From the NCBI GenBank assembly GCA_041649155.1, contig JBAZNP010000001.1, forward strand, positions 494,564 through 558,563: DNA of 64,000 bases, in the 5' to 3' direction. The translations under genes were made by a program, and so were the position numbers. The notes under the pieces are model-generated. The model was not told the origin of the DNA, did no database searches, and saw only the letters and a list, made by a program, of their open reading frames with translations. Every line of letters starts with the position of its first letter. The first letter of the stretch is position 1. Shown here piece after piece: positions 9,107-53,911 of the stretch. The DNA is from Patescibacteria group bacterium (GTDB lineage Bacteria > Patescibacteriota > UBA1384 > XYA2-FULL-43-10 > 1-14-0-10-43-13).

Positions 9107-10357
9107 TTGTTTAAACTATTCAAAAATTCGACTAAGGATCATGCGATTGCTCTTGATATTGGAACTGAATTCGTAAAGGTTCTAGTTTATCGTATTGAGG
9201 GAGATAAAGCAGTTGTGGTCGGCAGCGGTCGGCAACACCAGAGTCTTTCTGATATGCAGGGTGGTCGTGTAACTGATATTTCCGGCGTTATCCGAAATTG
9301 TGAAATTGCTCTCGACAAAGCTTTTGAGGAAGCGGGAGTGACGCCGCGGCAATGTGTTATTGGAATTGCCGGTGAGCTTGTTAAAGGCACAACCACGACA
9401 GTTTATTATAAAAGAAAAGATCCTAAGGTCAGAATTGCAGTTAAGGAACTAAAAGAAATTATTGAACAGGTTCAGGCTAAGTCTTTTGAGAAAACCAGAT
9501 CAGAATTAGCTTGGGAAACGGGCCATTCTGAGATTGATGTTAAATTAGTTAATTCCGCGGTGGTTGATGTTAAGATTGACGGATATAAAGTTACAAATCC
9601 AGTAGGATTTCAGGGCAGGGACATTCAGGTGGGAATTTTCAATGCTTTTGCACCGATTGTTCATTTGGGAGCACTTCAGACTATTGCTGAAGGATTAAAC
9701 TTGGACTTGCTTGCAATTGCAGCCGAACCTTATGCAGTTGCCCAGTGTGTTGGTCTGGAGGATTCAGCAGAGTTTTCCTCTATATTTATCGATATTGGTG
9801 GCGGCACAACCGACATTGCAGTTGTGAGAAATGGCGGAGTTGAAGGTACGCGAATGTTTGCCATTGGCGGCAGATCGTTTACAAAATCAATTGCTGATAT
9901 GTTTGATCTGTCTTTCGCCGAAGCTGAAAAACTAAAACGCGATTATTCAACCGGAAAACTGGGAGAAAAAACCAAAACCCGTGAGAAAATTTCCCAAGCT
10001 TTGAAGAATGATTGCGAAGTCTGGCTTGCCGGTGTGCAAATTGCTTTAGAAGAATTCTCCAACGTTGATCTGCTGCCTTCTAAAATACTACTTTGCGGCG
10101 GCGGTTCGCTTTTACCTGACATTAAAGAATATTTAGAAAAAAAGTCATGGATAAAGGGCTTGCCTTTTGCTAAACAGCCAAAGGTTGATTTCATAAAGCC
10201 GTCGAGTGTGACTCATGTTAAAGATGAGACTGGCAAATTAACCGGATCGCAGGATGTGACTCCAATGGGGCTTGCTAATCTGGGAATTGATTTGGTTGGC
10301 GATCCGAGCATGGTTGACGGGATACTGGATAAGATTGTGGATGGAATTCGCTCGTAA
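9107..10357 (+). CDS. ftsA: actin-like ATPase, cell division protein FtsA-like
   Basis: N-terminal ALDIGTEFVKV, DIGGGTTDIAVV and a C-terminal LLCGGGS motif. TTG start inferred. Confidence 0.65.
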   Translation: MFKLFKNSTKDHAIALDIGTEFVKVLVYRIEGDKAVVVGSGRQHQSLSDMQGGRVTDISGVIRNCEIALDKAFEEAGVTPRQCVIGIAGELVKGTTTTVYYKRKDPKVRIAVKELKEIIEQVQAKSFEKTRSELAWETGHSEIDVKLVNSAVVDVKIDGYKVTNPVGFQGRDIQVGIFNAFAPIVHLGALQTIAEGLNLDLLAIAAEPYAVAQCVGLEDSAEFSSIFIDIGGGTTDIAVVRNGGVEGTRMFAIGGRSFTKSIADMFDLSFAEAEKLKRDYSTGKLGEKTKTREKISQALKNDCEVWLAGVQIALEEFSNVDLLPSKILLCGGGSLLPDIKEYLEKKSWIKGLPFAKQPKVDFIKPSSVTHVKDETGKLTGSQDVTPMGLANLGIDLVGDPSMVDGILDKIVDGIRS

Positions 10358-12456: not shown

Positions 12457-12879
12457 ATGATGTATTTAGGAATTGATTTTGGGAAGAAAAGAATTGGGTT
12501 GGCTTTGGGTCAATTGATTCCTAAGGGGGCAGGAGTAATTGACGGATTGAAAAGTCTGGAAGAAATTACTTCGACTATAAAAAATATTTGTCAAGAAAAT
12601 GAGGTTGATGAGATAGTCATCGGTTGGCCCAAAAAGCTGAGTGGGGATCCAGGCGATATTGCAGGGGATATAAAAATATTTTCCGAAAGTTTAAAAGAAA
12701 ATATTGGATTGCCAATTCGTTTTGAAGAAGAAGATCTAACCTCGGTTGAAGCGGAAGACATGATCAAGGAAAGCGGCAAGAGATTTAGCAGGGAAAGCGG
12801 CAAAACGGATGAGATTGCAGCTATACTCATACTTGAACGATATATTGATCATTTAAGCGAACCTAATAAGGAAAAGTGA
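12457..12879 (+). CDS. ruvX: Holliday junction resolvase-like RNase RuvX/YqgF
   Basis: YLGIDFGKKRIGLAL...IVIGWPKKLSGD pattern. 4-bp overlap with the downstream mltG, as in many bacteria. Confidence 0.85.
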   Translation: MMYLGIDFGKKRIGLALGQLIPKGAGVIDGLKSLEEITSTIKNICQENEVDEIVIGWPKKLSGDPGDIAGDIKIFSESLKENIGLPIRFEEEDLTSVEAEDMIKESGKRFSRESGKTDEIAAILILERYIDHLSEPNKEK

Positions 12880-13865
12880 TGAAGAAGACTATAAAAACTA
12901 TAATCACTTTGTTTTTAGTATTGTTGATTTTTTCAATTACCGGCTTTCTTTTCTATCTAAATTGGATCGTTCACACTCCTGTTGCTAAAGGAAGCAGCGA
13001 ATACAAGATTGTTGAGGTTAAAAAAGGCGAAGGCACTTTTCAAATTGCACAAAAATTGAAGAACAAAAATCTGGTTGCTTCTGACTGGGTTTTTTATTTA
13101 AATGCAAAGATTAAGTCAGGATCTCTTTCTGTCGGGTATTATAATCTGTCGCCAAGTATGACAATGCTTGATATTTATAACAAAATTTCTTCTGGGGACA
13201 CCAACATTGTGAAAGTCACTATTCCTGAAGGTTATCGCACAGAACAAATTGCACAAGTTCTAAATGAAAAAAGTGTGACAAATTATGAAAGTTTCATGGA
13301 AGCTGCTAAGAAATATGAAGGAAAGTTGTTTCCTGATACTTATTTTTTCCCAACCGGCATGTCAGATACTGATATTGTAAAAACAATGACCGATGATTTT
13401 TCCGAACGCACAAAAGATTTAAACGTTACAAATGAAGACCTTGTGATTGCTTCAATAGTTGAAAGGGAGACGATAAAAGATAATGAACGACCACTTATTG
13501 CCGGCGTTTATAAAAACAGGATAGTCAAGAGTATGAAACTGGAGGCTGACCCAACTGTCCAGTATGGGAAAGATAACTTGTCGGTCAAGTCTTTGTCTGG
13601 TGATGAACTTTTAAACTTCAAATTTTGGCAACCAATAACTTCTGCTGATTATAAAACAGTTGATTCTTCTTATAACACTTATTTAATATCCGGCCTTCCA
13701 CCGACGCCAATTTGCAATCCTGGCATCAAGAGCATTGAAGCAGCCATAAACTATGGGAAGCATAATTATATCTATTTCCTGCAGAACGGCGGCCAAATCT
13801 ACCCAAGCGAAACTCTTTCACAACATGACAAGTATAGACGAGACATTCTCGGGGCAAAGAACTAA
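12876..13865 (+). CDS. mltG: endolytic murein transglycosylase MltG (YceG family)
   Basis: N-terminal TM followed by a YceG-like domain (VTIPEGYRTEQIAQVL). Confidence 0.8.
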   Translation: MMKKTIKTIITLFLVLLIFSITGFLFYLNWIVHTPVAKGSSEYKIVEVKKGEGTFQIAQKLKNKNLVASDWVFYLNAKIKSGSLSVGYYNLSPSMTMLDIYNKISSGDTNIVKVTIPEGYRTEQIAQVLNEKSVTNYESFMEAAKKYEGKLFPDTYFFPTGMSDTDIVKTMTDDFSERTKDLNVTNEDLVIASIVERETIKDNERPLIAGVYKNRIVKSMKLEADPTVQYGKDNLSVKSLSGDELLNFKFWQPITSADYKTVDSSYNTYLISGLPPTPICNPGIKSIEAAINYGKHNYIYFLQNGGQIYPSETLSQHDKYRRDILGAKN

Positions 13866-13924
13866 AAGATTGGGCTAGTAATTTGATTTAGTTTGTATAT
13901 CGCTATCTTGGATACTTACTCTTA

Positions 13925-14021
13925 GCTTGACCGTTGGGATTTTTTGTGATGGACAATTAAGTCTAGATGTGTTATAAGTTTAATGGTGATTATTATTACT
14001 CAATGAGGGGGGGATTTGTGA
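13925..14021 (+). repeat. paralogous 5' leader (CTTGACCGTTGGGATTTTTT ... TTATAAGT ... GGGGGGATTTGTGAATG), copy 1
   Basis: Collinear similarity to the mreB leader at 14921-15007. Confidence 0.65.
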
Positions 14022-14861
14022 ATGTTGGAACAAAAAGCTATTGATTGCATCGTTTCTGAAGTTAGGCGAAAATTGGCCCTCCAGAAATCAGGAGAGCCGC
14101 AAACACGAACAACACAAACTGAATTTGCTACACTTTTGGATTTAAAAGCAAGAGAAGTTTGTCAGATTGTTAAAATTTGTCTTACAGAAAAGGAGCAACT
14201 GCAATGGCGGCGTCTTCCGTTGCAGCAGTGGCAGAGAGGGCCAAAGTTTTGGAAAATCATTGAATATGCTCGCTCATGTTTGGCGGAGGTCCGTCGAGGT
14301 AATCGATCATTTGTTCCCACTTTGAGATTTATCGGTAAGGAGTTCAATCTCTCTAGAGAGAGAGCCAGGCAAGTTCTTGCCGCCGGATTGACTGAGGTTG
14401 AGATTAGAGATTGGAAGAGATATAGCAGCAAGGGCCGTTCCAAGAAAGTAAAACAATTACGCGAGCAAAGCAAGGAAACCACAAACAAACAAAATGCGTC
14501 TAAGCGGCTGATTAGGTATTGTCGGTTTCTGATTCTACTTTTGAGAATTGGTAGGATCAAGAGGTTGCCTTCGATGCCGACAATCGCTAAGAAGTTAGAA
14601 ATTGGCCGTAGAGTCGGATGTTATCTCATGGAGAAGCTTTTAACTCTGGAAGAAAGGAGTTACTGGTCCAGATCGGTAACGATAAATCGGGTGTCTGCCT
14701 GTTTATCCGAAGAAGCGAAGCGGTTTCGTGACGGTGAAATTGATGTCTTGCCAGCAAAAAAAGACATTTGCGAGGAGTTTGGAGTATCTGGTTCGTATAT
14801 TTACTCCGTTGTTATTCCCAAGCTTTCCTCGGCGGACCAAAAAATTTGGAGAAGTTATTAA
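14022..14861 (+). CDS. hypothetical basic protein with three sigma-70-region-4-like HTH repeats
   Basis: Motifs FIGKEFNLSRERARQVL, PTIAKKLEIGRRVGCYL and ICEEFGVSGSYIYSVV. GC about 44%. Confidence 0.55.
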   Translation: MLEQKAIDCIVSEVRRKLALQKSGEPQTRTTQTEFATLLDLKAREVCQIVKICLTEKEQLQWRRLPLQQWQRGPKFWKIIEYARSCLAEVRRGNRSFVPTLRFIGKEFNLSRERARQVLAAGLTEVEIRDWKRYSSKGRSKKVKQLREQSKETTNKQNASKRLIRYCRFLILLLRIGRIKRLPSMPTIAKKLEIGRRVGCYLMEKLLTLEERSYWSRSVTINRVSACLSEEAKRFRDGEIDVLPAKKDICEEFGVSGSYIYSVVIPKLSSADQKIWRSY

Positions 14862-14920
14862 ACTGATGTAGAGTGAGCCGAAAGTTAGGCTCACTTCTTT
14901 TTTTGTTTGTAGAAGTTTCC

Positions 14921-15007
14921 TCCGTCTTGACCGTGGGGATTTTTTTATCTATGCTAAAAACAGTCGTCATTATAGTCAACGATGATTAATTCAGGGGTAT
15001 TTTTTGA
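14921..15007 (+). repeat. paralogous 5' leader copy 2 (mreB upstream; CTTGACCGTGGGGATTTTTTT-N-TATGCT)
   Basis: Contains a plausible -35 TTGACC and -10 TATGCT. Confidence 0.65.
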
Positions 15008-16060
15008 ATGAAAAATCCATTTAGCGCAATATTTAATAAGTTCTCACATGACATTGGCATTGACTTAGGTACTGCTAATACTTTGGTGTATGTTCGTGGT
15101 AGGGGGATCGCCATTGAAGAGCCTTCTGTTGTTGCGATCAATAAGCGAACTAAAGAAATCCTAGCCATCGGTCAGGAAGCAAAAAGAATGGTGGGGCGAA
15201 CTCCAGCCCATATCGTAGCGGTCAGGCCTCTGGTGGACGGGGTAATTTCTGATTTTGAAATAACCGAGCAGATGCTCAGATATTTTTTCGATCGGGTCCA
15301 TAAGGAAAAGTTTACTCTTCTTCCTCGTCCCCGAGTTGTGATCGGTATTCCTCATAGCGTTACTGAAGTTGAGAGAAGGGCGGTAGAGGAAGGGGCGATC
15401 AATGCCGGTGCCAGAGAAGTATTTCTTATCGAAGAACCAATTGCTGCCGCGATTGGTGCTCGTTTACCAATTCAGGACGCTTCCGGCAGCATGATCATCG
15501 ACATTGGCGGCGGCACAACAGAGGTGGCTGTAATGTCACTTGGCGGGGTTGTGGCTTCAAGATCGCTTCGAATTGCTGGAGATGAGATGAATGAAGATAT
15601 TATTCAATATGCAAGAGAAAAATTTAATCTGGTTTTGGGCGAAAGAACAGCCGAGGATATTAAAATCAAGATTGGTTCAGCTTGCGAGATGAAAGAGAAA
15701 CTGGAAACCCCGATGAGAGGAAGAAATCTTGTTACCGGTCTTCCTAAAGAAATCATTGTTAATGATGAGCAGATAAGGGAAGCAATTAAGAAATCTCTGA
15801 ATGCGATTATGGAAAGCATTCGGGTTACGATGGAAGAAACTCCACCTGAACTTTTGGCTGATATAATGGATAAGGGTATTGTTCTGGCTGGCGGCGGCGC
15901 TCTATTGCGCGGGTTGGATAAAAAAATATCTGAAGAGACAGAAACTCAGGTTCATATTGCAGATGATCCCTTAACTGCTGTGGTTAGGGGAACGGGAATA
16001 GTTCTGGAGGATTTGGATCTACTGTCCAATGTGCTTTTGCCGAAGGAATTTGGACGATAG
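15008..16060 (+). CDS. mreB: rod shape-determining protein MreB
   Basis: GIDLGTANTLVYV, DIGGGTTEVAV, LAGGGALLRGLD. Confidence 0.92.
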   Translation: MKNPFSAIFNKFSHDIGIDLGTANTLVYVRGRGIAIEEPSVVAINKRTKEILAIGQEAKRMVGRTPAHIVAVRPLVDGVISDFEITEQMLRYFFDRVHKEKFTLLPRPRVVIGIPHSVTEVERRAVEEGAINAGAREVFLIEEPIAAAIGARLPIQDASGSMIIDIGGGTTEVAVMSLGGVVASRSLRIAGDEMNEDIIQYAREKFNLVLGERTAEDIKIKIGSACEMKEKLETPMRGRNLVTGLPKEIIVNDEQIREAIKKSLNAIMESIRVTMEETPPELLADIMDKGIVLAGGGALLRGLDKKISEETETQVHIADDPLTAVVRGTGIVLEDLDLLSNVLLPKEFGR

Positions 16061-16163
16061 AAAAAGCTAAATGTTACTTTATTTACTTTATTGCTGCGGA
16101 ACTCGTTTTGCTCGAACAGTCCTCGCTAATAAAACCAACAAAATAACAGATAAATGCTGTGTT

Positions 16164-16252
16164 GTCATTCCCGCGAAGGCGGGAATCTAGAAACTATTAT
16201 ATGGATCCCAGGGCTTCACTCTCAAGCTGCACCGCCGAACCCGAGGATGACA
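16164..16252 (+). repeat. palindromic element family 1-related, copy F
   Basis: GTCATTCCCGCGAAGGCGGGAATC...CCGAGGATGACAG. Confidence 0.7.
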
Positions 16253-16259
16253 GAAGAGA

Positions 16260-17072
16260 ATGAGGTATCTGGCTCGAATAACAAATATCATCCTACTTAG
16301 TATGAAAAAGACAAAACTAATTTTAATTATCGTGGTTCTTTTAATTGTTTTAGTGGTTCCGTTCAAAAAAACCATTAATGTATTTTTAGTGAATAGTACG
16401 ACTGGCATTTCCAAAAGCTTCTCCAATGCGGGCAGAAAAACCAAAAGCGTGTTTTCTTTTGTTTCTGAAATATCCAGATTAAAAAAGCAGAATGCCGAAT
16501 TATCTGAAAAAATACTCTCTTTTGATGTCGATAGAAGCAAAATCTCCGAACTGGAGTATGAAAATTCCCTTCTCAAAAAAGAGCTCGGATATATGGAGGA
16601 GCACAAAGATTATTCTGTTATTCCATCAAGAATTATCGGAAGAGAGCCAACCAGTTTTCTTGACTATGTTATGATTGACAAGGGCTCAAAGGACGGAGTA
16701 ATTAAGGATGCGGCGGTGATATCGGGTGGGGCTTTGGTAGGTCAGATTAAAGAAGTATACGACAATCAATCAAAGGTAACTTTAATTACCAGCAAGGACT
16801 CAATTATTTTAGCCATGATACAAAAATGCCGATCAAAAGGAATATTGCGGGGAGGAATTTCCGGTCTTGTGCTTGAAGACATAACAAGAGAGGCGGAATA
16901 CCAACCTGGTGATTACATTGTAACTTCAGGTTTGGACGGCCAGATGAAAGAAGGAATTTTAATCGGCAAAGCAGGAAATTTGCAGTCGTCATCTTCTGAA
17001 TTATTTAAAAATATTTCTGTTGAGCCGGTTGCTGATTTGTCGAAGTTGGAATTAGTTTTTGTATTAAAATAA
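16260..17072 (+). CDS. mreC: rod shape-determining protein MreC
   Basis: N-terminal TM, coiled-coil LKKQNAELSEK..., C-terminal beta domain. Alternative start at 16302 (MKKTK). Confidence 0.8.
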   Translation: MRYLARITNIILLSMKKTKLILIIVVLLIVLVVPFKKTINVFLVNSTTGISKSFSNAGRKTKSVFSFVSEISRLKKQNAELSEKILSFDVDRSKISELEYENSLLKKELGYMEEHKDYSVIPSRIIGREPTSFLDYVMIDKGSKDGVIKDAAVISGGALVGQIKEVYDNQSKVTLITSKDSIILAMIQKCRSKGILRGGISGLVLEDITREAEYQPGDYIVTSGLDGQMKEGILIGKAGNLQSSSSELFKNISVEPVADLSKLELVFVLK

Positions 17073-34428: not shown

Positions 34429-34491
34429 ATAAGGAAAACCCCAGTTAAATAATTTCTCTTTGGTTAATATTTAACGGGGTAAAGGAGAATT

Positions 34492-35049
34492 ATGACAATA
34501 GTTTGGATTTTAGTGGGAATTATCGTGGTCTTGGTCTTGGTTGTGGTTTCGATGTATAATCGATTGGTTCAACTTAACATTAGAAGCGATGAAGCTTGGA
34601 GCGATATTGACGTTCAATTGAAACGAAGGTATGATTTAATCCCTAACCTAGTTGAAACAGTAAAGGGATATGCAAAACACGAAAAAGGTGTTTTTGAGGA
34701 AGTAACAAAAGCACGATCGGAAGCTTTGAGCGCTAAAGGGATTAAGTCAAAATCTGAGGCAGAAAACAAAATTTCTGAGGCTTTAAAGTCAATATTCGCT
34801 GTTGCGGAGGCCTATCCAGATCTCAAAGCTAGCCAAAATTTTAGCCAGTTACAAGACGAGTTAACTGATACAGAAGATAAAATTCAGGCTGCTAGAAGGT
34901 TCTACAACGCGAATGTTAGGGACTTAAATATTGCAGTTCAAAGTTTCCCAACCAACATTATTGCCAACATGTTTAGCTATAAAAAGAGAGAGCTATTCGG
35001 TTTGGAAGAAGCTGCAGCAAAAGAGCCGGTTAAAGTGAAATTCGAGTGA
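34492..35049 (+). CDS. lemA: LemA family protein
   Basis: N-terminal TM then YNRLVQL...EAWSDIDVQLKRRYDLIPNLV. Confidence 0.85.
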   Translation: MTIVWILVGIIVVLVLVVVSMYNRLVQLNIRSDEAWSDIDVQLKRRYDLIPNLVETVKGYAKHEKGVFEEVTKARSEALSAKGIKSKSEAENKISEALKSIFAVAEAYPDLKASQNFSQLQDELTDTEDKIQAARRFYNANVRDLNIAVQSFPTNIIANMFSYKKRELFGLEEAAAKEPVKVKFE

Positions 35050-36790: not shown

Positions 36791-37684
36791 TCAAAACTCA
36801 AAATATGTTTCGAGTCGACTGGCGGTAACGGCGCATCGGAGCTTCTTTTTGGCTCTTATCTCCAGCTGTCTTATGCGTTCACGTGTTACTTTGAATTCTT
36901 CCCCGACTTCTTCCAGTGTAGAGGTCATTTCGTCTTTTAGCCCGAATCGTTTTTCGATAATCAGTTTTTCTTGGGGACTAAGCCACAACATCAGTTCATT
37001 GAGGACTTTTGTGTCTTCGCATTTGAACATTTCTGTCATAGGGTCTACTGACCTTGGATCTATGAGTCGTTCTTGAAGCGACCTGTTATTGTCGTCTTCA
37101 ACTCGTTCGTCCAGCGAAACGAGTGCCTCTGACGCCTTGATCAAACGCAGTACCTTCTCTCCTGACAAATGAGTTAACTTGCATAGTTCCTCCATAGTTG
37201 GTTTCTTTCCATGCTCATCGGCAAAGGAGGATTCTATTTCGTGAAGTTTTCTGATGGATTGAATCACATAGCTTGGCAACCTGATAGCGCGTTCCTGACG
37301 TTCGATTGCCCTTGTGACAGCTTGTCGAATCCAGTTAGTTGCATAGGTCGAGAACCTGAATCCTTTGTTTGGATTAAAGCTCTCAACTGCTTTGAAAAGA
37401 CCAATATTGCCTTCCTGAATCAGATCAGGCAATGGCACTCCGGATCGTGAGTAAACTTTGGCCACGCTCACCACGAGCTTTAGGTTTGACTCGATTAACT
37501 TGTTCCTTGCTGTTTCGTTTCCCGACTGGGCTTTTCTTGCCAGATCACGTTCTTCTTCAACCCCTAAGAGGGGCCATCGGCCGATCTGAGCAAGATACAT
37601 ATCCATCGAATCACCTACACCTGAAACTCCCGGCATTTCCTCTTCTGTTTCTGGTTCTGGCAACTCAAGTAAACAACTATCCAT
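36791..37684 (-). CDS. RNA polymerase sigma-70 family factor (RpoD/SigA-like, compact)
   Basis: Region 2 (YLAQIGRWPLL, TYATNWIRQAVTRAI), region 3, region 4 (TLEEVGEEFKVTRERIRQLE). Start at 37684 has RBS GGAGGG; ORF open to 37717. Confidence 0.85.
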   Translation of the reverse strand: MDSCLLELPEPETEEEMPGVSGVGDSMDMYLAQIGRWPLLGVEEERDLARKAQSGNETARNKLIESNLKLVVSVAKVYSRSGVPLPDLIQEGNIGLFKAVESFNPNKGFRFSTYATNWIRQAVTRAIERQERAIRLPSYVIQSIRKLHEIESSFADEHGKKPTMEELCKLTHLSGEKVLRLIKASEALVSLDERVEDDNNRSLQERLIDPRSVDPMTEMFKCEDTKVLNELMLWLSPQEKLIIEKRFGLKDEMTSTLEEVGEEFKVTRERIRQLEIRAKKKLRCAVTASRLETYFEF

Positions 37685-37853
37685 TATTGCTAACCCTCCT
37701 CTTGGATGCATTTTCATACTTGTTTCTTCTATCAGATATGTGTCCGGTGATCATATTTATACACTTTTGTCATTAATTTGTCAATATTTAAAAATTTGCT
37801 ACTAGCCTAATTTTTTTCTTAATCTATTGAATTTGAAAGGTGAGCAAGGGTAG

Positions 37854-53245: not shown

Positions 53246-53353
53246 CAATACTAATTACAAATATACAAATTATTACAAAAAGTACGTGAAAGAATTAATA
53301 CCCCAGTTAAATAATTTCCCTTTGGTCAATATTTAACGGGGCAAGGGAGTAAC

Positions 53354-53911
53354 ATGATAGATCAAATAATTACAGATATTAAGCCAAAAATGAAGAGCGC
53401 TATTGACAATTTAACTACTGAATTACAGAGAGTCAGGACTGGAAGAGCGAACGCCAGTATTTTGGATGGAATTTCAGTCCCATATTATGGGTCTACTTCT
53501 TCGATCAGAGAAATGGCTTCAATCACAATTCCAGAACCTACTGTGATTGCAATTAAACCTTGGGACAGGAATGCTTTATCTGACATTGAAACGGCGATCA
53601 GGTCCTCTGACATTGGTTTGTCTCCCATCAATGATGGTGTTCAGGTAAGATTGGTTTTGCCTCAAATGACCGAAGAAAGAAGGAAGGAAATAGTCGGTCA
53701 AGTGAAGAAAATGGGGGAAGATGCCAAAGTTTCAATTAGAAATGTTCGTGGCGACGCATGGACAAAGGTTCAACAGGCGGTGAAGAAAAATGAGGCAACC
53801 GAAGATGATAAATACGGTGCCGAAGAAGAGTTGAACAAATTGACATTGGAAAAAAACAAAGAAATTGACAAAATAATTTCTGACAAAGAAATAGAAATAA
53901 TGAAGATTTAA
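53354..53911 (+). CDS. frr: ribosome recycling factor
   Basis: RRF pattern and the rpsB-tsf-pyrH-frr gene order. Confidence 0.9.
   Translation: MIDQIITDIKPKMKSAIDNLTTELQRVRTGRANASILDGISVPYYGSTSSIREMASITIPEPTVIAIKPWDRNALSDIETAIRSSDIGLSPINDGVQVRLVLPQMTEERRKEIVGQVKKMGEDAKVSIRNVRGDAWTKVQQAVKKNEATEDDKYGAEEELNKLTLEKNKEIDKIISDKEIEIMKI

What the first reader, a model, noticed from the sequence alone, without database searches (positions are those of the whole stretch)
13925..15007. Triple-HTH basic protein gene inserted between mltG and mreB, carrying a duplicated copy of the mreB 5' leader
The roughly 100-bp regions upstream of ORF 14022 and of mreB are collinearly similar. They share CTTGACCGT(T/G)GGGATTTTTT, then TTATA(A/G)GT...GATGATTA, then GGGG..ATTT.TGAATG, including the same TGAATG start context. 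So either the whole promoter/leader was duplicated together with an inserted gene, or both genes are under one common control element. The protein is 279 aa and basic, with three sigma-70 region-4-like helix-turn-helix units (LSRERARQVL-type). It has slightly higher GC and no obvious family. It may be a lineage-specific transcription factor co-regulated with the cell-shape operon.
Basis: seen in the sequence. Interest (0 to 1): 0.6.

Follow-up and report, generated by a model that had tools for sequence, protein, structure and literature searches.

The report
Orphan four-HTH gene splitting mreB promoter
A rare, strain-specific gene for a DNA-binding protein built from four sigma-factor-like repeats lies in a highly variable gap in front of the cell-shape gene mreB, and the "shared leader" is only a 20-base copy of part of the mreB promoter, an interesting but minor case of genome evolution.

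Summary
The 20-mer CTTGACCGT[T/G]GGGATTTTTT is real. It occurs only twice in the 64-kb window, exactly 1000 bp apart, flanking ORF 14022-14861. The rest of the "collinear leader" is not above chance, apart from a similar G-run ribosome-binding site. Eight relatives' loci show that the mreB-proximal copy is the -35 hexamer plus spacer of a deeply conserved mreB promoter (TTGACC-17-TATGCT). None of them has a second copy.

The mltG-mreB gap is a hypervariable slot. It is empty in three relatives, 281 nt of non-coding DNA in the closest one (about 88% nucleotide identity), and holds unrelated genes in the others.

The ORF looks like a separate transcription unit, with its own candidate promoter (TGGACA-17-TGtTATAAG), a G-rich Shine-Dalgarno and a strong terminator. 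The roughly 980-nt cassette appears to sit inside the mreB promoter, and the 20-bp duplication keeps that promoter intact.

The protein is basic (pI 10.1) and has four homologous ~60-aa repeats, not three. Their HTH resembles sigma-70 region 4.2, and repeat 2 keeps the SRERARQ recognition motif. It is not a sigma factor. The family has only 3 clusters among about 15 billion proteins. One homolog occupies the same slot in another clade; another lies between rplO and secY.

Co-regulation with mreB is unsupported. Binding of the protein to -35-like sites is an inference only.

The parts
12876..13865 (+). mltG (YceG-family endolytic transglycosylase). It forms the left border of the variable slot.
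   Evidence: Pfam YceG, E 8.5e-77. Synteny ruvX-mltG-[slot]-mreB-mreC-mreD-PBP2-greA is seen in all relatives.
13895..14923 (.). Segment with no counterpart in the closest relative, L019, which has 169 unrelated nt here.
   Evidence: blastn blocks between the window and L019 end at 13894 and resume at 14924, with 87-89% identity on either side.
13926..13945 (+). Distal copy of the 20-mer, CTTGACCGTTGGGATTTTTT. It is a severed copy of the -35 hexamer and spacer of the mreB promoter, with no -10 behind it.
   Evidence: Its 5' flank, CTCTTAG, is identical to the flank of L005's mreB promoter. Right-anchored flank alignments give p 0.024-0.05 against L005, L003 and L019. Seventeen nt after TTGACC comes TGGACA, which is not a -10 (sequence).
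13950..13978 (+). Candidate promoter of the ORF itself: TGGACA, a 17-nt spacer ending in TGt, then TATAAG (an extended -10).
   Evidence: Read directly from the sequence. The scan tool does not list it because it requires T at position 6 of the -10. The P0123 gene in L007 has TGGACA-17-TAAAGT at a similar distance from its start, but that alignment is not significant. This is inference.
14007..14013 (+). G-run Shine-Dalgarno, 8 nt before the ATG.
   Evidence: Sequence. A GGGG Shine-Dalgarno is rare in the window, 5 of 56 genes. The L007 homolog has the same GGGGGGAT.
14022..14861 (+). ORF of 279 aa (NCBI MFA4996024.1, WC536_02695), a basic protein of four tandem HTH repeats.
   Evidence: Homolog P0122 matches over the full length at 43% identity, E 5e-53, and P0123 at 28%, E 1e-6. 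AF2 with a 3-sequence alignment gives mean pLDDT 82.9, all-helical. pI 10.1.
14034..14213 (+). Repeat 1 (aa 5-64).
   Evidence: hhalign: R1 vs R2 E 1.3e-6, R1 vs R3 E 3.6e-5.
14241..14423 (+). Repeat 2 (aa 74-134). Its HTH, PTLRFIGKEFNLSRERARQVL, is the repeat most like sigma-70 region 4.2.
   Evidence: Pfam Sigma70_r4 on residues 100-124, E 7e-4. hhalign to the host's own sigma factor region 4.2 covers 22 aa, E 8.7e-5. PDB SigA region 4.2, E 6e-6 with the repeat profile.
14496..14675 (+). Repeat 3 (aa 159-218), reached through a long basic linker helix (aa ~125-175).
   Evidence: hhalign: R2 vs R3 E 2.9e-5, R3 vs R4 E 2.1e-6. AF2 helix 125-175.
14676..14858 (+). Repeat 4 (aa 219-279).
   Evidence: hhalign: R2 vs R4 E 3.1e-7.
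14871..14906 (+). Intrinsic terminator of the ORF: a 9-bp stem (GAGTGAGCC...GGCTCACTT) followed by a T-run.
   Evidence: Terminator scan. Fold energy -15.9 kcal/mol, z -3.67 against shuffles.
14926..14945 (+). Proximal copy of the 20-mer, CTTGACCGTGGGGATTTTTT. It is part of the functional mreB promoter.
   Evidence: It is orthologous to the promoters in L019, L001, L003, L005, L025 and L026.
14927..14955 (+). mreB promoter: TTGACC, 17 nt, TATGCT, followed by the conserved AAAAACAG.
   Evidence: Promoter scan. About 40 nt are nearly invariant in 7 genomes, and the architecture is kept in the more distant L027 and L028.
15008..16060 (+). mreB.
   Evidence: Pfam MreB_Mbl, E 8e-143. 89-97% amino-acid identity in relatives.

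Best explanation
ORF 14022-14861 is a sporadically distributed accessory gene of a Patescibacteria (CPR) genome. It lies in a hypervariable slot between mltG and the deeply conserved mreB promoter.

The gene appears to be a separate transcription unit of about 980 nt. It has its own sigma-70-type candidate promoter (TGGACA-17-TGtTATAAG), a G-run Shine-Dalgarno and a strong intrinsic terminator.

The cassette sits inside the mreB promoter, immediately after the first 20 nt (the -35 TTGACC plus 13 nt of spacer). Those 20 nt are present on both sides:
- The distal copy keeps the ancestral upstream flank but is cut off from the -10.
- The proximal copy keeps the ancestral -10, leader and mreB.

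The duplication is therefore an insertion or recombination footprint that left mreB with an intact promoter. Insertions that did not restore the -35 would probably have been selected against. It is not a duplicated leader and not a dedicated common operator.

The product is a basic DNA-binding protein made of four homologous ~60-aa modules. Each module is a long helix, an HTH and a C-terminal helix ending in L-T/S-x-x-E-x-x-x-W. Repeat 2 keeps the S/T-R-E-R-x-R-Q recognition helix of sigma-70 region 4.2. The most likely activity is sequence-specific binding to TTGAC-like (-35-like) sites, probably including sites in its own promoter region (autoregulation).

Shown: the anatomy, the conservation pattern, the repeat homology and the sigma-4.2-like HTH.
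Inferred: the insertion mechanism, use of the candidate ORF promoter, and DNA binding with its targets.
For: 20-mer:
- It occurs only twice in the window, 1000 bp apart.
- Eight relatives' loci have exactly one copy, always abutting the -10 TATGCT and mreB.
- Window-L019 homology breaks at 13894 and resumes at 14924.
- The distal copy's 5' flank matches relatives' promoter-upstream flanks: a 7-nt identical run with L005, p 0.024-0.05. The proximal copy's flank does not, p 0.16-0.98.

Slot content:
- It differs in every genome. It is empty in L026, L028 and the P0049 contig. L019 has 281 nt of non-coding DNA.
- L001, L003, L005, L025 and L027 carry unrelated genes.

Transcription unit:
- A terminator follows the ORF.
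- The ORF's GC is in the top 5% of window segments.

Protein:
- The repeats are homologous: 5 of 6 profile pairs have E <= 3.6e-5, with z 9-18.
- The repeat profile hits region 4.2 of primary sigma factors in the PDB, best E 6e-6, and nearly all of the 60 listed hits are sigma factors.
- Pfam Sigma70_r4 matches 3 of 11 repeats, best E 1e-5.
- The top Foldseek PDB hits are sigma factors, though weak, E 0.06-1.
- The family is tiny: 3 clusters in 1.84 billion representatives.
Against: - No empty-site sequence with the same upstream flank exists, so the insertion point is inferred from flank similarity of modest significance.
- L019 differs from the window over the whole of 13895-14923, not only the 980 nt, so at least one further replacement must be assumed.
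- A 20-bp duplication is longer than usual transposon target duplications, and no recombinase or terminal inverted repeats are present.
- A homolog (P0122) sits in the same slot in a clade with only 52% MltG identity. This fits either ancient residence with many losses or repeated targeted acquisition, and neither is resolved.
- The candidate ORF promoter is read by eye. Its resemblance to the L007 promoter is not statistically significant.
- The genome-wide copy number of the 20-mer could not be checked, because the genome is in neither searchable collection.
Confidence: 0.6

Rival explanations
1. Common operator. The 20-mer is the binding site of the four-HTH protein, kept in two copies so that the protein autoregulates and also controls mreB.
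For: - Both copies contain CTTGACC, and repeat 2 keeps the sigma-4.2 residues (SRERARQ) that in sigma-70 read the -35 element (the role of those residues is from established knowledge).
- The distal copy is still 19/20 identical although it has no -10 behind it.
- The L007 homolog also has TTGACC and TGGACA hexamers upstream.
Against: - The 20-mer, as the lineage's version of the mreB promoter, is equally conserved in six relatives that lack the protein. Its conservation therefore needs no such protein.
- 19/20 identity is equally explained by a recent duplication. L019, at 88% nucleotide identity, lacks the second copy.
- TTGACC-type hexamers are common.
- There is no binding data.
Confidence: 0.15
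2. Small site-specific mobile cassette. The 1-kb unit integrates at the mreB promoter through a 20-bp att-like core or by Campbell-type recombination, mobilised in trans. This would explain the flanking direct repeats and the recurrence at the same slot.
For: - Direct repeats exactly bracket 980 nt.
- Two of the three family clusters occupy the mltG-mreB slot, in two clades whose sister genomes have empty slots.
- The third lies in another conserved operon gap, rplO-secY.
- GC is mildly atypical.
Against: - There is no integrase or transposase, and no terminal inverted repeats.
- The L007 copy has no flanking direct repeats and is part of a larger 4.6-kb island.
- There are no relatives in phage, plasmid or viral collections.
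- Unrelated genes fill the same slot in other genomes without any repeat, so the slot is generally permissive.
Confidence: 0.12
3. Whole promoter and leader duplication, followed by divergence of the middle part.
For: The 20-mer is shared, and so is an unusual ribosome-binding context: GGGG plus TGAATG occur together in only these 2 of 56 genes.
Against: - There is no significant similarity over the ~55 nt between the two blocks. Neutral decay would not leave 19/20 identity next to none.
- The -10 and AAAAACAG, invariant in all relatives, are absent from the distal copy.
- The G-run Shine-Dalgarno is shared with the distant homolog in another context, so it is probably intrinsic to the gene.
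Confidence: 0.08
4. The 20-mer is the 3' half of a terminator-like hairpin that overlaps the -35, with the G-run arm followed by a T-run. It would insulate mreB from upstream transcription, and the distal copy would then terminate mltG transcripts.
For: - The terminator scan flags CTCCGTCTTGACCGTGGGG+T-run.
- Hairpins with the -35 in the loop can be drawn in 7 of 8 copies, although the 5' flanks are unrelated.
Against: The stems are weak and rich in G-U pairs. They are no better than with random 16-nt flanks from the same loci: individual p 0.09-1.0, Fisher p 0.12. The fold z-scores are only -1.5 and +0.1.
Confidence: 0.07

Closest known systems
Domain 4 (region 4.2) of primary sigma-70-family sigma factors
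   Same: The HTH core of the repeats, especially repeat 2 (TLRFIGKEFNLSRERARQVL), aligns with region 4.2 ([24 protein letters not shown]). The repeat profile gives E 6e-6 against PDB SigA. The R-E-R-x-R-Q recognition-helix motif is kept. Each repeat is a small helical unit like sigma-4.
   Different: There is no region 2 or region 3. No Pfam Sigma70_r2 or r3 hit was found for the window ORF, and the similarity to the host's own sigma factor is limited to 22 residues. The module is repeated four times in tandem and ends in an extra helix with a conserved L-T-x-x-E-x-x-x-W. Nothing suggests binding to RNA polymerase core.
Tandem-HTH DNA-binding proteins (Myb R1R2R3, the paired domain, AraC/XylS two-HTH domains, transposase N-terminal HTH pairs). 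This comparison is from general knowledge.
   Same: Several small HTH units lie in one chain, which would be expected to read an extended or composite DNA site. Weak structural matches were found to multi-HTH viral proteins, the Mos1 transposase and AdpA.
   Different: There is no sequence or profile match to any of these families. The unit here is sigma-4.2-like and four-fold. The structural matches have low TM-scores (<= 0.23).
Target-site duplications and att-core repeats flanking inserted DNA
   Same: A direct repeat of host sequence brackets a foreign segment.
   Different: At 20 bp it is longer than usual transposon duplications. No transposase, integrase or terminal inverted repeats are present. 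The repeated sequence is part of an essential promoter, so selection for keeping mreB expressed may explain why it was retained.
Variable accessory-gene slots ('islets') between conserved core genes
   Same: The same intergenic position between mltG and the mreB promoter holds different, unrelated genes, or nothing, in each of ten relatives.
   Different: The slot is very small, 0-3 kb. Its right edge coincides to the base with the start of the conserved mreB promoter.

Membership tests
Sigma-70 family sigma factor | Region 2 (core binding and -10 recognition; Pfam Sigma70_r2) | tested here: not met
   No Sigma70_r2 hit at E <= 1. hhalign of the family alignment against the host's 308-aa sigma factor aligns only 22 residues of region 4.2.
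Sigma-70 family sigma factor | Region 4.2 HTH with a -35 recognition helix | tested here: met
   The repeat profile hits SigA region 4.2 in the PDB, E 6e-6. Repeat 2 carries the SRERARQ motif.
Pfam PF04545 Sigma70_r4 domain | Score at or above the gathering cut-off (24.1 bits) | tested here: not met
   The window protein scores 19.4 bits, E 7e-4, below the cut-off. Three of 11 repeats across the family match, best E 1e-5.
Insertion sequence / transposon | Transposase gene and terminal inverted repeats | tested here: not met
   There are no transposase family hits. No inverted repeat pairs the ends 13946 and 14925.
Insertion sequence / transposon | Direct duplication of the target flanking the insert | tested here: met
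   20-bp repeats at 13926 and 14926. The length is atypical.
Integrase-mediated integrative element | Site-specific recombinase, and att core repeats at both ends | tested here: inconclusive
   Repeats are present. No recombinase lies within or next to the segment. Mobilisation in trans cannot be tested.
Sigma-70-type promoter (proximal copy, mreB) | -35 and -10 hexamers with a 17-nt spacer, conserved in orthologous position | tested here: met
   TTGACC-17-TATGCT. It is conserved in 8 relatives. Activity was not tested.
Sigma-70-type promoter (distal copy) | A -10 hexamer 16-18 nt after the -35 | tested here: not met
   At 17 nt the hexamer is TGGACA. The site is not listed by the scan.
Intrinsic terminator (after the ORF) | GC-rich stem-loop followed by a T-run, more stable than shuffled sequence | tested here: met
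   -15.9 kcal/mol, z -3.67.
Known RNA leader / riboswitch | Match to an Rfam family in either leader | tested here: not met
   No relevant Rfam match at E <= 1 in 13700-16400. The leader folds are not better than shuffles.

The most novel reading that the evidence does not exclude
The protein founds a class of 'sigma-4 repeat' regulators. It would be a chain of four sigma-70 region-4.2-derived modules that recognises -35-type hexamers, or mimics sigma domain 4 on RNA polymerase. It would thereby compete with the housekeeping sigma factor at selected promoters. Here those would be its own promoter and that of the mreB cell-shape operon, whose -35 region it carries in two copies. The cassette would also home to such promoters.
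Probability: 0.1. Interest if true: 0.65.

Novelty: new variant of a known kind. Interest (0 to 1): 0.3.

Why it matters
If the protein does bind -35-like sites, it would be a simple natural example of a sigma-domain-4 module reused as a stand-alone, multimerised DNA reader. That would be relevant to how sigma factors and HTH regulators are related, and to transcription control in CPR bacteria, for which almost nothing is known experimentally.

The locus also gives a clean example of how a gene can land inside the promoter of an essential operon and survive, because the -35 region was duplicated. It further shows that a tiny intergenic slot next to a deeply conserved promoter can turn over its content between close relatives.

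As it stands, this is an orphan HTH gene with an insertion footprint. It is useful for annotation, but it is not a new system.

Tried and rejected
1. Formal alignment of the two leaders. Only the 20-mer and the ribosome-binding site align, and the rest is at chance level.
2. Genome-wide search for the 20-mer. Neither genome contigs nor metagenome contigs holds this genome. All hits were chance matches in unrelated taxa, except L019, which turned out to be the closest relative.
3. Hairpin/terminator overlapping the -35. This is not better than with random flanks, Fisher p 0.12.
4. Conservation of the ORF's promoter between the window and the L007 homolog. It is suggestive by eye (TGGACA-17-TA[T/A]AAG, GGGGGGAT Shine-Dalgarno), but the local alignment gives p about 0.3.
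5. Homology between the ORF and the genes that fill the slot in relatives. None was found.
6. Degenerate second copies of the promoter piece in relatives' slots. None was found.
7. Links to phage, plasmid or defence systems. There were no meaningful PHROG or PADLOC hits, no tblastn matches in phages or plasmids, and no IMG/VR relatives.
8. Rfam families in the leaders. None was found.
10. DNA of the P0122 contig was not available.
11. Literature searches found nothing on tandem sigma-4-like repeat proteins.
Full report
**Where the window comes from.** The ORF product is identical to NCBI MFA4996024.1, 'MAG: hypothetical protein WC536_02695 [Patescibacteria group bacterium]', on a 798,787-bp contig. 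The same DNA is 100% identical in an ENA assembly (603-kb contig) and in a Logan assembly of SRR8542065. The arrangement is therefore not an assembly artefact.

**Checking the observation.**
- The 20-mer CTTGACCGT[T/G]GGGATTTTTT is at 13926-13945 and 14926-14945, exactly 1000 bp apart. These are the only matches in the 64-kb window at up to 3 mismatches, against 0.08 expected, and 0 of 100 shuffles reached 2.
- Beyond the 20-mer the two upstream regions do not align convincingly. MAFFT and Smith-Waterman recover only the 20-mer and the ribosome-binding/start block. For the sequence downstream of the 20-mer, the global score has p about 0.04 and the local score p about 0.17.
- The start context is nevertheless unusual. 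Among 56 crude gene starts, GGGG at -20..-6 occurs in 5, TGAATG in 3, and both together only in this ORF and mreB.
- The protein is 279 aa and basic, pI 10.1.
- Its GC is 43.2%, against 38.2 +/- 2.9% for the window, which is in the top 5%.
- mltG and mreB are confirmed by Pfam.

**What the 20-mer is.** I fetched the mltG-mreB region from relatives found through MltG homologs. These were L001, L003, L005, L025 and L026, with MltG identity of 66-77%, and L027 and L028, at about 51-53%. A metagenome scan for the 20-mer found L019, the closest relative, with 87-89% nucleotide identity and 97% MreB identity.
- In all of these loci mreB is preceded by CTTGACCG...TTTTTATCTAT(G/T)(C/G)TAAAAACA. This reads as a -35 TTGACC, a 17-nt spacer, a -10 of TATGCT, TATTGT or TATTCT, and a conserved start region.
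- About 40 nt are almost invariant, while the sequence immediately upstream is unrelated from genome to genome.
- The mreB-proximal 20-mer is thus the -35 hexamer plus 13 nt of spacer of a deeply conserved mreB promoter (promoter scan).
- None of the relatives checked for it has a second copy, even at 6 mismatches.

**The slot.** The content between mltG and the promoter differs in every genome:

| Genome | Content of the mltG-mreB slot |
|---|---|
| L026, L028, P0049 contig | nothing (80-109-nt gap) |
| L019 | 281 nt of non-coding DNA |
| L001 | a 134-aa membrane protein on the other strand |
| L003 | 276-aa and 257-aa proteins |
| L005 | a 94-aa protein and a 117-aa glyoxalase-like protein |
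| L025 | a 915-aa beta-propeller-like protein |
| L027 | a glycosyltransferase and a 329-aa protein |

 None of these is related to the ORF. Against L019, homology stops at window 13894, 29 nt after the mltG stop, and resumes at 14924, 2 nt before the proximal 20-mer. The 1029 nt in between correspond to 169 unrelated nt in L019.

**How the second copy arose (inference).**
- The distal copy is followed by GTGATGGACA rather than the conserved TATCTATGCT, so it has no -10.
- Its 5' flank resembles the sequence upstream of relatives' mreB promoters. There is a 7-nt identical run, CTCTTAG, abutting the 20-mer in L005. Right-anchored alignments give p 0.024, 0.05 and 0.048 against L005, L003 and L019.
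- The 5' flank of the proximal copy resembles none of them, p 0.16-0.98.
- This is the pattern expected if about 980 nt (13946-14925) entered the promoter right after the 20-mer and the 20-mer was duplicated. The distal copy then keeps the ancestral upstream context, and the proximal copy keeps the ancestral -10, leader and mreB.
- The mechanism is open. It could be a long staggered target duplication, Campbell-type integration through the 20-bp homology, or illegitimate recombination.
- No transposase, integrase or terminal inverted repeats are present.
- Because mreB needs its -35, only events that restored it would be expected to persist.

**The gene as a unit.**
- Inside the insert there is a near-consensus candidate promoter: TGGACA (13950-13955), a 17-nt spacer, then TATAAG (13973-13978) preceded by TGt (this is my reading).
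- A seven-G Shine-Dalgarno lies 8 nt before the ATG.
- A strong terminator lies at 14871-14906 (-15.9 kcal/mol, z -3.67).
- No Rfam family matches either leader, and neither leader folds better than shuffles.
- The idea that the 20-mer is half of a terminator-like hairpin was tested against random flanks and is not supported, Fisher p 0.12.

**The protein.**
- It has four homologous repeats, not three: aa 5-64, 74-134, 159-218 and 219-279. Each ends in L-T/S-x-x-E-x-x-x-W-R/K.
- Profile-profile comparisons between the repeats give E from 3e-7 to 4e-5 for five of six pairs, with z 9-18 against column-shuffled controls.
- AF2 with the 3-sequence family alignment gives mean pLDDT 82.9 and pTM 0.42. 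The fold is all-helical, with a long helix (125-175) joining two pairs of repeats.
- A profile of the 11 repeats in the family hits region 4.2 of primary sigma factors in the PDB. The best hit is B. subtilis SigA, E 6e-6, and nearly all of the 60 listed hits are sigma factors.
- Pfam Sigma70_r4 matches 3 of 11 repeats, best E 1e-5. The window protein stays below the curated cut-off, at 19.4 against 24.1 bits.
- Foldseek's top PDB hits are sigma factors but weak, E 0.06-1.
- Repeat 2 reads PTLRFIGKEFNLSRERARQVL. The window's own 308-aa sigma factor (36791-37717, minus strand) reads [20 protein letters not shown]. hhalign aligns just these 22 residues, E 8.7e-5.
- The R-E-R-x-R-Q helix is the part of sigma-70 region 4.2 that contacts the -35 element. 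That statement rests on established structural and genetic knowledge, not on a test here.
- The protein lacks region 2 and is not a sigma factor.

**The family.** HMMER against 1.84 billion cluster representatives finds only two relatives.
- P0122 (295 aa, 43% identity, four repeats) lies on an ENA contig with the order ruvX-mltG-P0122-228 aa. This is the same slot, in a clade whose MltG is only 52% identical to the window's. No DNA is available for it. Its sister genomes have empty or differently filled slots.
- P0123 (233 aa, 28% identity, three repeats) lies in a 4.6-kb island between rplO and secY of another CPR-like genome. The island also carries a divergent sigma factor (phrog_351, E 8e-13) and a NYN-domain protein.
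- The upstream region of P0123 also has TTGACC, TGGACA-17-TAAAGT and a GGGGGGAT Shine-Dalgarno. The alignment to the window's ORF leader is not significant, and no direct repeats flank that gene.
- There are no relatives in phage, plasmid or IMG/VR collections.

**Verdict.**
It is a 20-bp duplication of the core of the mreB promoter, bracketing a strain-specific, apparently self-contained gene that lies in a hypervariable slot.
- The reading 'duplicated leader / common control element' is not supported.
- 'Lineage-specific sigma-4-like HTH protein inserted between mltG and mreB' is supported.
- Regulation of mreB by the protein, through the TTGACC-containing 20-mer, remains an untested possibility. 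I put it at roughly 10-15%.
- The gene family is new and very small. In kind it is a variant of tandem-HTH DNA-binding proteins.

Noticed in passing
window 34438-34479 and 53300-53341 (+): A 42-nt palindromic element, ACCCCAGTTAAATAATTTC[T/C]CTTTGGT[T/C]AATATTTAACGGGG, occurs in two copies that are 40/42 identical. Each lies directly upstream of the Shine-Dalgarno of an unrelated gene: a LemA-like gene at 34492 and a ribosome-recycling-factor-like gene at 53354. It folds into a hairpin of about -14 kcal/mol (z only -1.3 to -1.5) and has no Rfam match. This is a second case in the window of a short upstream module shared between unrelated genes.
   Followed up: partly
window 14926-14965; L019, L001, L003, L005, L025, L026, L027, L028 upstream of mreB: The mreB promoter, CTTGACCG-N10-TTTTTATCTATnnTAAAAACA, is almost invariant across genomes whose MltG is only 51-77% identical. 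Even spacer and start-region bases are conserved, which suggests constraint beyond the two hexamers.
   Followed up: partly
L007 7793-12428: A 4.6-kb island lies between rplO and secY of a CPR-like genome. Its S5-L15 region has no L30 gene. The island carries the three-repeat homolog P0123, a 365-aa protein whose N-terminus looks like a signal peptide (read by eye, not tested), an 81-aa gene, a divergent 262-aa sigma factor (phrog_351, E 8e-13; Sigma70_r3 sub-threshold) and a NYN-domain protein.
   Followed up: partly
window 16164-16187 (+) and about 35190 (-): A REP-like palindrome, GTCATTCCCGCGAAGGCGGGAATC, lies just downstream of mreB and occurs once more in the window. Similar GTCATCCTGAGC/GTCATTTCGAGC motifs are clustered in L007 12070-12200.
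   Followed up: no
window 14957-14985 compared with L003 8735-8750: The mreB 5' UTR of the window and of L019 carries about 20 extra nt (TCATTATAGTCAACGATGAT) compared with L003. The UTR can form two small hairpins, one of which covers the Shine-Dalgarno, but the fold is not significant, z -0.86.
   Followed up: partly
window 9107-10357 (+) and the same position in all relatives: A second actin-fold gene, FtsA/PilM-like and 416 aa, followed by a 588-aa low-complexity protein, is syntenic upstream of ruvX-mltG in every relative examined.
   Followed up: no
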